A stretch of DNA of 4,596 nt from IMG/VR virus record IMGVR_UViG_2695420426_000010; one strand, given 5' to 3'. Of the stretch, positions 15-4,596 are shown piece by piece. A program made the translations under genes and the position numbers. A model generated the notes under the pieces. The model had not been told where the DNA came from. It worked only from the letters and a program-made list of their open reading frames with translations, and searched no databases. The first letter of the stretch is position 1. Each line of letters starts with the position of its first letter. Origin of the DNA: a virus (Duplodnaviria; Heunggongvirae; Uroviricota; Caudoviricetes).

Positions 15-3000
15 ATGGGTAAAGGCAGCAGTAAGGGGCATACCCCGCGCGAAGCGAAGGACAACCTGAAGTCCACGCAGCTGCTGAGTGTGATCGATGC
101 CATCAGTGAAGGGCCGGTTGAAGGTCCGGTGGATGGATTAAAAAGCGTGCTGCTGAACAGTACGCCGGTGCTGGACAATGAGGGGAATACCAACATCTCC
201 GGCGTCACGGTGGTGTTCCGGGCAGGTGAGCAGGAGCAGTCACCGCCGGAGGGATTTGAATCCTCCGGCTCCGAGACGGTGCTGGGTACGGAAGTGAAAT
301 ATGACACGCCGATCACCCGGACCATCACGTCGGCAAACATCGACCGTCTGCGCTTTACCTTCGGTGTACAGGCACTGGTGGAAACCACCTCAAAGGGAGA
401 CAGGAATCCGTCTGAAGTTCGCCTGCTGGTTCAGATACAGCGTAACGGTGGCTGGGTGACGGAAAAAGACATCACCATTAAGGGCAAAACCACCTCGCAG
501 TATCTGGCCTCGGTGGTGGTGGATAACCTGCCGCCGCGCCCGTTTAATATCCGGATGCGCAGAATGACGCCGGACAGCACCACAGACCAGCTGCAGAACA
601 AAACGCTCTGGTCGTCATACACCGAAATCATCGATGTGAAACAGTGCTACCCGAACACGGCACTGGTCGGCGTACAGGTGGATTCGGAGCAGTTCGGCAG
701 CCAGCAGGTGAGCCGTAATTATCATCTTCGCGGGCGCATTCTGCAGGTGCCGTCGAACTATAATCCGCAGACGCGGCAATACAGCGGTATCTGGGACGGA
801 ACGTTAAAACCGGCATACAGCAACAACATGGCCTGGTGTCTGTGGGATATGCTGACCCATCCGCGCTATGGCATGGGGAAACGTCTTGGTGCGGCAGATG
901 TGGATAAATGGGCGCTGTATGTCATCGGCCAGTACTGTGACCAGTCGGTGCCGGACGGCTTTGGCAGCACGGAGCCGCGCATCACCTGTAATGCCTGGCT
1001 GACCACACAGCGCAAGGCGTGGGATGTGCTCAGTGATTTCTGCTCGGCGATGCGCTGTATGCCGGTATGGAACGGGCAGACGCTGACGTTCGTGCAGGAC
1101 CGACCGTCGGATAAGGTGTGGACCTATAACCGCAGTAATGTGGTGATGCCGGATGATGGCGCGCCGTTCCGCTACAGCTTCAGCGCCCTGAAAGACCGCC
1201 ATAATGCCGTTGAGGTGAACTGGATTGACCCGGATAACGGCTGGGAGACGGCGACAGAGCTTGTGGAGGATACGCAGGCCATTGCCCGTTACGGTCGTAA
1301 CGTCACGAAGATGGATGCTTTTGGCTGTACCAGCCGGGGGCAGGCACACCGCGCCGGGCTGTGGCTGATTAAAACAGAAGGGCCGGTTGAAGGTCCGGTG
1401 GATGGATTAAAAAGCGTGCTGCTGAACAGTACGCCGGTGCTGGACAATGAGGGGAATACCAACATCTCCGGCGTCACGGTGGTGTTCCGGGCAGGTGAGC
1501 AGGAGCAGTCACCGCCGGAGGGGTTTGAATCCTCCGGCTCCGAGACGGTGCTGGGTACGGAAGTGAAATATGACACGCCGATCACCCGGACCATCACGTC
1601 GGCAAACATCGACCGTCTGCGCTTTACCTTCGGTGTACAGGCACTGGTGGAAACCACCTCAAAGGGAGACAGGAATCCGTCGGAAGTCCGCCTGCTGGTT
1701 CAGATACAGCGTAACGGTGGCTGGGTGACGGAAAAAGACATCACCATTAAGGGCAAAACCACCTCGCAGTATCTGGTCTCGGTGGTGGTGGATAACCTGC
1801 CTCCGCGCCCGTTCAGTATCCGGATGCGCAGGATGACACCGGACAGCACCACAGACCAGCTGCAGAACAAAACGCTCTGGTCGTCATACACCGAAATCAT
1901 CGATGTGAAACAGTGCTACCCGAACACTGCACTGGTCGGCGTACAGGTGGACTCGGAGCAGTTCGGCAGCCAGCAGGTGAGTCGTAATTATCATCTTCGC
2001 GGGCGCATTCTGCAGGTGCCGTCGAACTATAACCCGCAGACGCGACAATACAGCGGTATCTGGGACGGAACGTTAAAACCAGCATACAGCAACAACATGG
2101 CCTGGTGTCTGTGGGATATGCTGACCCACCCGCGCTACGGCATGGGGAAACGTCTTGGTGCGGCGGATGTGGACAAATGGGCGCTGTATGTCATCGGCCA
2201 GTACTGCGACCAGTCAGTGCCGGACGGCTTTGGCGGCACGGAGCCGCGCATCACCTGTAATGCGTACCTGACCACACAGCGCAAGGCGTGGGATGTGCTC
2301 AGTGATTTCTGCTCGGCGATGCGCTGTATGCCGGTATGGAACGGGCAGACGCTGACGTTCGTGCAGGACCGACAGTCGGATAAGGTGTGGGCCTATAACC
2401 GCAGTAATGTGGTGATGCCGGATGATGGCGCGCCGTTCCGCTACAGTTTCAGCGCCCTGAAAGACCGCCATAATGCCGTTGAGGTGAACTGGATTGACCC
2501 GGATAACGGCTGGGAGACGGCGACAGAGCTTGTGGAGGATACGCAGGCCATTGTCCGTTACGGTCGTAACGTCACGAAGATGGATGCCTTTGGCTGTACC
2601 AGCCGGGGGCAGGCACACCGCGCCGGGCTGTGGCTGATTAAAACAGAACTGCTGGAAACGCAGACCGTGGACTTCAGCGTGGGCGCAGAAGGGCTTCGCC
2701 ATGTGCCGGGCGATGTCATTGAAATCTGTGATGATGACTATGCGGGTATCAGCATCGGCGGGCGCGTGCTGGCGGTAAACAGCCAGACCCGGACGCTGAC
2801 GCTCGACCGTGAAATCACGCTGCCATCCTCCGGTACCATGCTGATAAGCCTGGTTGACGGAAGTGGCAATCCGGTCAGCGTGGAGGTTCAGTCCGTCACC
2901 GACGGCGTGAAGGTGAAAGTGAGCCGTGTTCCTGACGGCGTTGCTGAATACAGCGTGTGGGGGCTGAAGCTGCCGACGTTGCGCCAGCGCCTGTTCCGCT

Positions 3001-4596
3001 GTGTGAGTATCCGTGAGAACGATGACGGCACGTATGCCATCACTGCCGTGCAGCATGTACCGGAAAAAGAAGCCATCGTGGATAACGGGGCGCACTTTGA
3101 CGGCGACCAGAGCGGCACGGTGAATGGTGTCACGCCGCCAGCGGTGCAGCACCTGACTGCCGAAGTCACCGCAGACAGCGGGGAATATCAGGTGCTGGCG
3201 CGCTGGGACACGCCGAAGGTGGTGAAGGGGGTGAGCTTTATGCTTCGCCTGACCGTGGCAGCGGATGACGGCAGTGAGCGGCTGGTCAGCACGGCCCGGA
3301 CGACGGAAACCACATACCGCTTCACGCAACTGGCGCTGGGACGGTACACGCTGACAGTCCGGGCGGTAAATGCCTGGGGACAGCAGGGCGATCCGGCGTC
3401 GGTATCGTTCAGGATTGCCGCACCGGTAGCACCGTCGCGGATTGAGCTGACGCCGGGCTATTTTCAGATAACTGCCACGCCGCATCTTGCGGTTTATGAT
3501 CCGACGGTACAGTTTGAGTTCTGGTTCTCGGAAACGCGGATTACCGATATCAGGCAGGTTGAAACCACAGCCCGCTACCTTGGCGCGGGGCTGTACTGGA
3601 TAGCCGCCAGTATCAATATCAAACCGGGCCATGATTATTACTTTTATATCCGCAGTGTGAACACCGTTGGCAAATCGGCATTCGTGGAGGCCGTCGGTCG
3701 GGCGAGCGATGATGCGGAAGGTTACCTGGATTTTTTCAAAGGCAAGATAACCGAATCCCATCTCGGTAAAGAGCTGCTGGAAAAAGTTGATCTGACGGAG
3801 GATAACGCCAGCAGACTGGATGAGTTTTCGAAAGAGTGGAAGGACGCTAACGATAAATGGAATGCGATGTGGGGCGTCAAAATTGAGCAGACCAAAGACG
3901 GCAAACATTATGTCGCGGGTATTGGCCTCAGCATGGAGGACACGGAGGAAGGCAAGCTGAGCCAGTTTCTGGTTGCCGCCAATCGTATCGCGTTTATTGA
4001 CCCGGCAAACGGGAATGAAACGCCGATGTTTGTGGCGCAGGGCAACCAGATATTCATGAACGACGTGTTCCTGAAGCGCCTGACAGCCCCCGCCATTACC
4101 AGCGGTGGCAGTCCTCCGGTATTTTCCCTGACATCAGACGGAAAGCTGACCGCTAAAAATGCGGATATCAGTGGTAGTGTGAATGCGAACTCAGGAACGC
4201 TCAACAATGTCACGATTAACCAGAACTGTACGATTAAGGGCATGCTGGAGGCGACCCAGGTCAGAGGGGATTTCGTTAAAGCTGTATCAAAAGCCTTCCC
4301 GAAAAAAGTCGGTACGTGGGGTAACACGGAAACACCAGACGGTACGGTTACAGTCACCATCAGCGATGATCATAACTTTGACCGCCAGATTATTATTCCG
4401 CCCATTATTTTTAACGGTATAGCGTATGACGATCCGGGGAGCGGAAATAACCCGGGAGGCACGCGATACACGGGTTATGGTTTTGAAGTTCGCAAAAACG
4501 GCGTATTAATCGCATCCAGAGAAACTAAAGGTGCCATTCCCGGTAGTTACAGTGCAGTTATTGATATGCCTAGTGGTGGTGGTAGCGTCACTCTGG
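15..4596 (+). CDS. J: Lambda-like tail tip / host specificity protein J (central tail fibre), 3'-partial, containing an internal in-frame tandem duplication of residues 33-455
   Basis: Hand translation of the frame starting at ATG 15 gives [168 protein letters not shown]..., which I recognise from memory as near-identical to the N-terminus of phage lambda gpJ. Downstream segments ([62 protein letters not shown]..., ...[124 protein letters not shown]...[15 protein letters not shown]) also match lambda J in the same order. I found no in-frame stop anywhere from 15 to 4596 by hand translation, and a TGA at 9..11 closes the frame just upstream, so ATG 15 is the first start. GGAG at 3..6 sits 8 nt upstream of the ATG. 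The gene runs off the 3' end of the window, which is why the ORF track does not list it. Confidence 0.93.
111..1379 (+). repeat. Direct tandem repeat copy 1 (1269 bp, J codons 33-455)
   Basis: Sequence from 111 (gggccggttgaaggtccggtggatggattaaaaagcgtgctgctgaacag...) to 1379 (...ggctgtggctgattaaaacagaa) recurs at 1380..2648 with a period of exactly 1269 bp (3 x 423), so the J frame is preserved. The duplicated antisense ORFs in the track (431..631 vs 1700..1900; 628..816 vs 1897..2085) show the same 1269 offset. Confidence 0.95.
1380..2648 (+). repeat. Direct tandem repeat copy 2 (1269 bp, second copy of J codons 33-455)
   Basis: About 97-98% identical to copy 1 by my hand comparison (about 30 substitutions, no indels noticed). 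It ends at ...ctgattaaaacagaa (2646..2648 = gaa) and is followed by ctgctggaaacgcagaccgtg (LLETQTV), the normal continuation of J. Confidence 0.95.
3132..3698 (+). other. Two tandem fibronectin type III-like (Ig-like beta-sandwich) domains within J
   Basis: Two consecutive segments of about 95 aa with FN3-like character: [98 protein letters not shown] and [91 protein letters not shown]. Each has a conserved Trp near its N-terminal strand, a Tyr-containing strand, and a tyrosine corner-like motif (TYRF / YYFYIRSVN). FN3 domains are known in lambda J. Boundaries are approximate. Confidence 0.5.
4204..4596 (+). other. Divergent C-terminal receptor-binding (host-range) module of J, 3'-partial
   Basis: Up to ...[15 protein letters not shown] the protein tracks lambda J closely. 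From about 4204 it reads [131 protein letters not shown], only distantly similar to my recollection of the lambda C-terminus. Composition becomes visibly more AT-rich with rarer codons (ata, aga, cct, agt), e.g. attattattccgcccattatttttaacggtatagcg. The start coordinate is approximate. Confidence 0.55.

What the first reader, a model, noticed from the sequence alone, without database searches (positions are those of the whole stretch)
4204..4596. Divergent, AT-richer C-terminal receptor-binding module suggests a host-range swap to a non-LamB receptor
J matches lambda closely across the hub, FN3 and central fibre regions, then diverges and shifts in GC content and codon usage from about 4204 onward. 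The C-terminal part of lambda J is the receptor-binding domain and determines which outer-membrane protein is recognised. A mosaic breakpoint here is the classic signature of tail-fibre host-range module exchange. The receptor for this variant cannot be named from sequence alone, and the domain is incomplete because the window ends.
Basis: partly seen in the sequence, partly recalled or inferred. Interest (0 to 1): 0.6.

Follow-up and report, generated by a model that had tools for sequence, protein, structure and literature searches.

The report
Phage 434-type J receptor-binding tip (OmpC)
The divergent end of this lambda-like tail-tip gene is real, but it is the long-known host-range module of phage 434, which binds the porin OmpC instead of LamB and sits in about 39% of complete E. 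coli genomes, so it is ordinary.

Summary
The window is one J (tail tip attachment) gene. It is about 95% identical to lambda J in DNA up to about 4190. Identity then falls to 30-65% through the window end, with the best breakpoint at about 4217. GC drops from 0.577 to 0.479 and GC3 from 0.703 to 0.469.

The module-swap reading is also right. Bases 4203-4595 match phage 434 J at 392 of 393 positions, and all 131 amino acids are identical. The literature read here reports that 434 and the lambda h434 hybrid use OmpC.

The segment is a truncated Ig_GpJ_C receptor-binding domain. It is about 42% identical in protein to lambda's domain. The window ends 33 codons before the stop codon of 434 J.

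The same module occurs in 2103 of 5426 complete E. coli genomes. Lambda's own LamB-binding module occurs in 98. Natural J proteins carry at least four receptor-binding classes joined at one conserved junction, so this is routine mosaicism.

Verdict: already known, low interest. The one odd feature lies outside the finding. It is an in-frame 1269-nt tandem duplication at 108-2645 that I found in no public collection and could not resolve as real or artefact.

The parts
15..4596 (+). J gene (tip attachment / central tail fibre protein). The ATG is at 15, the frame is +3, and the ORF runs off the 3' end of the window.
   Evidence: Frame 3 is a single open frame. Pfam architecture is FNIII-A_GpJ (x2), Phage-tail_3 (x2), Ig_J, Ig_J_second, Phage_Tail_Tip, Ig_GpJ_C. 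DNA identity to lambda J is 94.6-96.4% up to 4253.
3999..4202 (+). Conserved junction segment ([12 protein letters not shown]...[14 protein letters not shown]). It is the last part of the fibre shaft, just upstream of the variable module, and is the likely site of homologous crossover.
   Evidence: This stretch is nearly invariant in eight J proteins from four receptor-binding classes. It is also conserved in phages whose upstream shaft module differs, Stx2d_112808 and Kati. That it is the crossover site is inference.
4190..4220 (+). Mosaic breakpoint zone between the lambda-like and the 434-specific sequence.
   Evidence: The sliding identity drop is. The first switch-specific differences are at about 4192 in the alignment. 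The maximum chi-square breakpoint is at 4217.
4203..4283 (+). Divergent neck ([27 protein letters not shown]) between the conserved junction and the Pfam receptor-binding domain. It is already 434-specific.
   Evidence: Alignments. The AlphaFold model has low confidence here, as expected for a monomer model of a trimeric intertwined segment.
4284..4596 (+). Receptor-binding domain (Pfam PF12421 Ig_GpJ_C), 434 type, truncated by the window end.
   Evidence: Pfam score is 73.1 bits against a cutoff of 26.2, covering profile positions 1-98 of 135. All amino acids match phage 434 J, with one synonymous change at 4532. The same region of full-length 434 J matches solved lambda J and A8 gpJ chains at E 1e-67 to 1e-76.
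108..1376 (+). Copy 1 of an in-frame 1269-nt tandem duplication in the hub region (J residues about 32-454). It is not part of the finding.
   Evidence: The two copies differ at 30 of 1269 nt.
1377..2645 (+). Copy 2 of the tandem duplication. The junction at 1376/1377 has only 3 nt of microhomology (GAA).
   Evidence: The junction 34-mer is absent from genome contigs, metagenome contigs and viral contigs. The listed best complete E. coli genomes lack the duplication.

Best explanation
Bases 4204-4596 encode most of the C-terminal receptor-binding module of a lambda-family J protein, and this module is the phage 434 (h434) allele.

How it works, by homology to solved J fibres. Three copies of an all-beta Ig-like domain form the tip of the central tail fibre. 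Their loops dock into the extracellular side of a trimeric porin. For this allele the porin is OmpC, not LamB. Binding spreads the bottom of the trimer. That movement is passed up the shaft and opens the tail tip for DNA ejection.

How it got here. The module was joined to a lambda-like J body by homologous recombination in the conserved stretch just upstream (about 3999-4202).

What is shown: the sequence identity to 434 J, the domain family, the breakpoint, the composition shift, and how widespread the module is. What is taken from the literature: OmpC as the 434/h434 receptor, and the lambda opening mechanism. What is inferred: that this copy, whose last 33 residues are unseen and whose gene carries a hub duplication, is expressed and works the same way.
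For: 1. Identity to 434 J. Bases 4254-4596 are 99.7% identical to phage 434 J (OL657226), 99.4% to lambda h434 imm21, and 99.1% to mEp460_ev081 and several Stx phages. Over 4203-4595 the match is 392/393 nt and 131/131 aa, with one synonymous change.

2. Receptor. 434 uses OmpC, and lambda carrying the 434 J binds OmpC (PMC11101478; PMC3509688). A related long-tailed phage, phi330, is shown by knockout and complementation to need OmpC, and its fibre is compared with those of 434 and lambda (PMC12502783).

3. Domain family. Pfam Ig_GpJ_C scores 73.1 bits. BLASTP identity to the lambda J C-terminus is 40%, E 1e-29.

4. Homology to solved fibres. phmmer of the full 434 C-terminus hits 9wca (A8 gpJ) at E 1e-76 and lambda J 8xcj/8iyk at E 1e-67.

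5. Fold. An AlphaFold model built on P0008, whose sequence equals the window's over all 131 aa, has an all-beta domain with pLDDT mostly 70-95 over residues 92-225. Its best Foldseek hits are 9wca, 8xck, 8xcj and 9wcb. Entry 9wcb is an A8 gpJ fibre bound to OmpC.

6. Loops. All four indels against lambda fall between predicted strands.

7. Module exchange. The breakpoint is sharp and third positions downstream are saturated. The same module is joined to a different upstream shaft module in Stx2d_112808 and Kati. Four receptor-binding classes share one junction.

8. Purifying selection. Relatives that differ at 32-40 of 393 nt differ at only 6-10 of 131 aa.

9. Mechanism. The lambda fibre opening mechanism is described in PMC11101478.
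Against: The last 33 codons are outside the window. Close relatives vary there at three positions (V/I, H/Q, R/G/W), so the exact C-terminus is unknown.

The sequenced lambda h434 imm21 hybrid is 434-like from J nucleotide about 2120 rightwards, through lom, stf and tfa. That hybrid alone therefore does not separate the J module from the 434 side fibre as the OmpC determinant. The assignment to J rests on the genetics cited in the reviews and on analogy with J-only chimeras (PMC11338833).

OmpC is itself polymorphic, and J variants discriminate between OmpC alleles. 'OmpC' does not fix the strain range.

The gene carries a 423-codon tandem duplication, so this copy may not make a working tail tip, or the contig may be misassembled.

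Confidence: 0.92

Rival explanations
1. The C-terminus diverged from lambda's gradually and in place, under diversifying selection for host range, without any module exchange.
For: The two modules are homologous along their whole length, at 40-43% aa identity with conserved motifs such as DDHxFDRQ and DMPxGxG. They therefore share an ancestor.
Against: Identity falls from about 95% to about 50% within about 30 nt. Downstream third positions are near saturation at 0.32. GC3 shifts from 0.70 to 0.47. The identical module sits behind a different upstream shaft module in other phages. The same upstream body carries lambda-type, A8-type or a fourth type of module in other genomes.
Confidence: 0.02
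2. The module recognises a receptor other than OmpC, or needs more than OmpC. This could be because the unseen last 33 residues differ, or because 434's OmpC dependence comes partly from its side tail fibre rather than from J.
For: The window lacks the last 33 codons. Lambda h434 imm21 also carries the 434 lom, stf and tfa genes. Ur-lambda's side fibre itself binds OmpC (PMC11338833). The 434, A8 and lambda classes are each only 42-48% identical to one another, so module class alone does not predict the receptor.
Against: All 131 visible residues are identical to 434 J. In nine relatives the missing tail is conserved apart from three positions. J-only C-terminal swaps are enough to move lambda particles from LamB to OmpC when the side fibre has been replaced. 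A J fibre bound to OmpC has been solved, entry 9wcb.
Confidence: 0.05
3. The sequence is a defective prophage remnant or a misassembled contig, so the module is present but is not part of a working tail tip. This does not exclude the best explanation of what the module is.
For: There is a 1269-nt in-frame tandem duplication whose copies differ at 30 sites. Its junction was found in no public collection. Other over-long J proteins lie in messy loci. P0068 is at a contig end among repeated tail genes. P0003 is followed by a third partial J copy. E. coli genomes hold a median of 3 J copies, which invites misassembly.
Against: The ORF is intact over all 1527 codons. The junction has only 3 nt of microhomology, which a k-mer graph cannot create without reads that span it (inference). 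The receptor-binding module shows no damaging changes.
Confidence: 0.4

Closest known systems
Phage 434 J protein (central tail fibre, OL657226 CPT_434_21) and the h434 host-range allele in lambda h434 imm21 (OM418627)
   Same: Bases 4203-4595 match at 392/393 nt and 131/131 aa. The breakpoint against lambda is the same. Upstream J sequence is 97-98% identical. OmpC is reported as the receptor.
   Different: The window lacks the last 33 codons. Its upstream body is a slightly different mosaic: the best match over the last 1 kb is mEp460_ev081 at 99.3%. It also carries a hub duplication that 434 does not have.
Lambda J receptor-binding domain bound to LamB (PDB 8XCJ, 8XCK; PMC11101478)
   Same: The Pfam family (Ig_GpJ_C), position and all-beta fold are the same. 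Conserved motifs are shared. The mechanism of porin docking and tip opening is presumably the same.
   Different: Amino-acid identity is only 40-43%. There are four loop indels: +2, +6 and +1 residues, and a net 4-residue deletion (6 in the pairwise alignments). The receptor is LamB. This type is present in only 98 of 5426 complete E. coli genomes, several of the listed ones being laboratory strains.
A8 gpJ chimera (PDB 9WCA closed state; 9WCB bound to OmpC of EDL933; PMC11338833)
   Same: It is a natural E. coli prophage J C-terminus grafted on lambda J that switches the receptor to OmpC. It is the best sequence and fold match among solved structures. The junction region is the same.
   Different: It belongs to a different module class, 48% identical over the module. 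Its C-terminal sequence matches that of P0080, not the window's.
Phage phi330 tail fibre (PMC12502783)
   Same: It is a long-tailed temperate EHEC phage whose J-like fibre needs OmpC, shown by knockout and complementation. The authors compare it structurally with the 434 and lambda fibres.
   Different: The authors report its receptor-binding domain as only 35-40% identical to those of 434 and lambda. I did not compare its sequence here.

Membership tests
Pfam PF12421 Ig_GpJ_C (J C-terminal receptor-binding domain) | Profile score above the curated gathering cutoff | tested here: met
   The score is 73.1 bits against a cutoff of 26.2, E 2.9e-20. With the whole ORF as query it is 70.2 bits.
Pfam PF12421 Ig_GpJ_C (J C-terminal receptor-binding domain) | Complete domain present | tested here: not met
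   Only profile positions 1-98 of 135 are covered because the window ends. Full-length 434 J covers positions 1-134.
Lambda-family tip attachment protein J | Domain order FNIII-A_GpJ, Phage-tail_3, Ig_J, Ig_J_second, Phage_Tail_Tip, Ig_GpJ_C, with high identity to lambda J | tested here: met
   All six families are found in order. DNA identity to lambda J is 94.6-96.4% up to 4253. One anomaly: the first two domains occur twice because of the tandem duplication.
Phage 434 (h434) host-range allele of J | Near-identity to the 434 J C-terminal module | tested here: met
   The match is 392/393 nt and 131/131 aa over 4203-4595, and 99.7% over 4254-4596.
Phage 434 (h434) host-range allele of J | Same C-terminal 33 residues (EFKVFHKGNQRAGNITDCTVIVTKKAASGISIR) | not testable with these tools
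   These residues lie beyond the window end. Relatives conserve this tail apart from three positions. The source contig could not be found by junction search.
Phage 434 (h434) host-range allele of J | OmpC-dependent, LamB-independent adsorption | not testable with these tools
   This is known for 434 and lambda h434 from the literature only. It needs a wet-lab test.
   Codon-aligned identity is 52% in nt and 43% in aa. BLASTP identity is 40%. There is no blastn alignment beyond 4253.
Fold of solved J fibre tips (8XCK, 8XCJ, 9WCA, 9WCB) | The predicted structure matches the solved receptor-binding domains best | tested here: met
   The top four Foldseek hits are 9wca, 8xck, 8xcj and 9wcb, at E 1e-18 to 5e-14. 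The next hit is at E 3e-4. Model quality is moderate: mean pLDDT 65, with 70-95 in the domain and a poor neck. TM-scores are therefore modest, 0.52, and 0.67 normalised to the 9wcb chain.

The most novel reading that the evidence does not exclude
The in-frame 423-codon tandem duplication of the J hub region (108-2645) may be a real molecule and not an assembly artefact. Its two copies would then come from two different J alleles. It would be one instance of a recurrent class of in-frame internal duplications in prophage J genes, because other over-long J proteins with different junctions exist. In that case a tail-tip protein would tolerate, or exploit, a doubled hub segment. The 434-type module at 4204-4596 has no novel reading that I can defend.
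Probability: 0.1. Interest if true: 0.45.

Novelty: already known. Interest (0 to 1): 0.1.

Why it matters
It matters little as a discovery. The h434 host-range allele has been used in lambda genetics for decades, its sequence is published (Feiss et al. 2022, PMC9119081), and fibre tips of this family bound to LamB and to OmpC have been solved.

The practical value is annotation. A J gene ending in this module can be labelled '434-type, OmpC-binding' and not left as 'receptor unknown'.

The census run here gives useful context. Among complete E. coli genomes the 434-type module is in 39%, a fourth type is in 69%, and lambda's LamB-binding type is in under 2%. Lambda is a poor reference for what a typical J tip looks like.

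Tried and rejected
1. I looked for the source contig, to recover the 3' end and the downstream genes, by searching the duplication-junction 34-mer in genome contigs, metagenome contigs and viral contigs. There were no hits.

2. I searched the two halves of the window separately against complete E. coli genomes. The best matches were only about 98%, so the source is not among them.

3. I searched the whole ORF against the protein collection. No protein carries this duplication. The search did return other over-long J proteins.

4. I looked for the A8 and 1A2 gpJ sequences in the supplements of PMC11338833, to see whether 1A2 is the 434 type. The files held as text contain no sequences.

5. I searched for a paper describing 9wca/9wcb and found none in the library.

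6. I checked for non-coding features. There were no Rfam matches in the window. In 3800-4596 there were no terminators and one promoter-like site, against 0.9 expected by chance. The short ORFs in other frames, 3908-4360 (-) and 4183-4422 (+), lie inside a conserved coding frame, and I dismissed them as spurious.

7. I considered foreign origin of the AT-richer module. A scan of one genome per species found it only in Escherichia, plus one 1350-bp contig binned as Collinsella that is almost certainly mis-binned. That scan finds close relatives only.

8. The monomer AlphaFold model of the neck upstream of the domain was poor (pLDDT below 50). I did not use it.

Full report
**What the window is**

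Frame +3 is one open reading frame from an ATG at 15 to the window end. It has no stop over 1527 codons. Pfam finds the J architecture in order: FNIII-A_GpJ, Phage-tail_3, Ig_J, Ig_J_second, Phage_Tail_Tip and Ig_GpJ_C. Against lambda (NC_001416; J at 15505-18903), blastn gives two collinear pieces. Window 1-1379 matches at 96.4% and window 1377-4253 at 94.6%. Nothing aligns beyond 4253.

**Checking the observation**

In 60-nt windows, identity to lambda is 0.87-1.00 up to 4200. It is 0.65 at 4201-4260 and then 0.30-0.65 to the end. Identity to phage 434 J and to mEp460_ev081 stays at 0.98-1.00.

Upstream of 4204 there are 143 differences in 2920 sites. Downstream, a protein-guided codon alignment gives 190 identical of 366 sites (52%). 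Amino-acid identity is 43% and third-position identity is 0.32. Fisher p is 1e-98, and a maximum chi-square scan puts the breakpoint at 4217.

GC is 0.479 and GC3 is 0.469 in 4204-4596, against 0.577 and 0.703 upstream. No upstream 393-nt window is as low. Lambda's own equivalent stretch has 0.542 and 0.606. GC already sags from about 3400 in the lambda-like part, and in lambda too, so only part of the shift belongs to the breakpoint.

**What the divergent segment is**

A search of phage records with 4254-4596 gives phage 434 at 99.7%, 434B and lambda h434 imm21 at 99.4%, and mEp460_ev081 and several Stx2 phages at 99.1%. In all, 74 records match down to about 80%. Over 4203-4595 the window differs from 434 J at one synonymous base (4532). 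All 131 amino acids are identical. The window stops 101 nt before the 434 stop codon, so EFKVFHKGNQRAGNITDCTVIVTKKAASGISIR is missing.

Pfam places the start of Ig_GpJ_C, 'Tip attachment protein J, C-terminal receptor binding domain', at window 4284, and profile positions 1-98 of 135 are present. The breakpoint therefore lies about 25 codons upstream of the domain proper, in the neck.

BLASTP against the lambda J C-terminus gives 40% identity, E 1e-29. The modules are homologous but anciently diverged.

**Receptor**

Two papers read here state that replacing lambda's J with that of 434 makes the phage bind OmpC, the receptor 434 uses. They are PMC11101478 and PMC3509688, both citing Fuerst and Bingham 1978. 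A 2025 study shows by knockout and complementation that the long-tailed EHEC phage phi330 needs OmpC. It compares that fibre with those of 434 and lambda (PMC12502783). Engineered lambda particles carrying only the C-terminal part of natural prophage J variants (A8, 1A2), with the side fibre replaced, deliver DNA through OmpC in strains lacking lamB (PMC11338833).

One caveat came from sequence. In the sequenced lambda h434 imm21 hybrid the left crossover lies at J nucleotide about 2120. Everything to the right, including lom, stf and tfa, is 434-derived. That hybrid alone does not isolate the J tip from the side fibre.

**Structure and mechanism**

The full 434 C-terminus (232 aa) matches solved chains by sequence. 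These are 9wca 'A8 gpJ 713' at E 1e-76 and lambda J 8xcj and 8iyk at E 1e-67.

I built an AlphaFold model from an eight-sequence alignment whose first row is P0008, which is identical to the window over the visible module. The model has an all-beta domain at residues 92-225, with pLDDT mostly 70-95. The neck is poor, as expected for a monomer model of a trimeric segment. Its four best Foldseek hits are 9wca, 8xck, 8xcj and 9wcb (E 1e-18 to 5e-14). Entry 9wcb is the A8 fibre in the open state bound to OmpC of EDL933.

The four indels against lambda are +2, +6 and +1 residues and a net 4-residue deletion in the eight-sequence alignment (6 in the pairwise alignments). All fall between predicted strands. 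I could not tell which of them correspond to the four receptor-contacting bottom loops described for lambda.

The lambda mechanism is taken from PMC11101478. The loops insert into the porin's extracellular lumen. The bottom of the trimer widens. New hydrogen bonds twist the shaft, the helical bundle flips, and the tip opens. That this allele works the same way on OmpC is inference from homology and from the existence of 9wcb.

**Mosaicism**

The same 434-type module follows a different shaft module, with a 28-residue insertion and many substitutions, in Stx2d_112808 and Kati. Twenty-five J proteins fetched from the protein search end in at least four module classes:
- the 434 type;
- the lambda type;
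- the A8 type, seen in the C-terminus of P0080, which matches the 9wca sequence aligned;
- a fourth type that begins NCRVLGKLSANQIEGD.

These classes combine with at least three shaft lengths. All are joined at the nearly invariant stretch DPANGN...[14 protein letters not shown]. Over the module, 434 against A8 is 48% identical, 434 against lambda 42%, and A8 against lambda 46%. Within the 434 class, relatives that differ at 32-40 of 393 nt differ at only 6-10 of 131 aa, so selection is purifying.

**How common it is**

The 434-type module matches in 2103 of 5426 complete E. coli genomes, with 452 records at 99% or above. The fourth type matches in 3743 genomes. Lambda's own module matches in 98, all at 99% or above, and several of the listed ones are laboratory strains such as DE3 lysogens. 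Among one genome per species, the 434 module was found only in Escherichia, plus one tiny contig binned as Collinsella.

**Other strands and features**

There are no Rfam matches in the window. In 3800-4596 there is no terminator and one promoter-like site, against 0.9 expected by chance. The segment is plain coding sequence.

**The odd thing outside the finding**

Bases 108-1376 and 1377-2645 are an in-frame tandem duplication of J residues about 32-454. The copies differ at 30 of 1269 nt, and the junction shares only GAA. The listed best complete E. coli genomes all lack it: the matched span is 3327 bp. The junction is absent from three public collections, and no database protein carries it.

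Other over-long J proteins with different internal duplications do exist. P0001 is lambda J with four tandem copies of a 250-residue segment, in an assembly labelled Bacillus thuringiensis. The others are P0002, P0003, P0014, P0061, P0067, P0068, P0080 and P0084. Of the two I looked at in context, P0068 lies at a contig end among repeated tail genes, and P0003 is followed by a third partial J copy. Both look like assembly trouble in multi-copy J regions. I could not decide the matter for the window.

**Verdict**

The module is the known 434/h434 allele, it is common in nature, and solved relatives exist bound to both LamB and OmpC. Novelty: already known. Interest: low.

Noticed in passing
window 108-1376 and 1377-2645: There is an in-frame 1269-nt (423-codon) tandem duplication of the J hub region. 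The copies differ at 30 nt (97.6% identity) and 7 aa. The junction has 3 nt of microhomology (GAA). It is absent from the best-matching complete E. coli genomes and from three public contig collections, and no database protein has it. It could be real or an assembly or library artefact. This is undecided.
   Followed up: partly
proteins P0001, P0002, P0003, P0014, P0061, P0067, P0068, P0080, P0084; loci L017 6001-10227 and L018 6001-11163: Other database J proteins are over-long (1217-1882 aa) because of in-frame internal duplications with different junctions. Nearly all are single-sequence clusters seen on one contig. L017 lies at a contig end among repeated K, I and J-fragment genes. L018 has a third partial J copy after the gene. 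Both suggest misassembly in multi-copy J regions.
   Followed up: partly
protein P0001 (labelled Bacillus thuringiensis Sbt003, contig 13.8 kb): This is a lambda-type J, identical to lambda J wherever I compared the two by eye, with four tandem copies of the segment VQFEFWF...NGTLRAE. It sits in an assembly of a Gram-positive bacterium. It is almost certainly lambda DNA contamination combined with an assembly artefact.
   Followed up: no
window 3999-4202 and alignment A1: Natural E. coli J proteins carry at least four receptor-binding module classes (434, lambda, A8, and one beginning NCRVLGKLSANQIEGD). They also have at least three shaft lengths. All are joined at one nearly invariant 68-residue stretch. 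Prevalence in 5426 complete E. coli genomes is 3743 for the fourth type, 2103 for the 434 type and 98 for the lambda type.
   Followed up: partly
L011 (lambda h434 imm21, OM418627) against L012 and L013: The classical h434 hybrid switches from lambda-like to 434-like at hybrid coordinate 17619-17637, which is J nucleotide about 2120. It stays 434-like through lom, stf, tfa and the b region. It also has a 434-like patch at 175-1684 near cos and Nu1/A. The hybrid therefore carries the 434 side fibre as well as the J tip.
   Followed up: partly
L015 (JAGZNZ010000056.1, 1350 bp): A 1350-bp contig binned into a Collinsella MAG encodes a 434-type J tip at 93% identity. It is most likely a mis-binned Escherichia prophage fragment.
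   Followed up: no
window 4093-4095 (codon GCC, Ala, in [10 protein letters not shown]): The window has Ala where lambda, 434 and most relatives have Thr (LTAPTITSGG). Among the sequences compared, only the prophage J of E. coli M19 shares it. That copy also matches the receptor-binding module at 392/393 nt.
   Followed up: no
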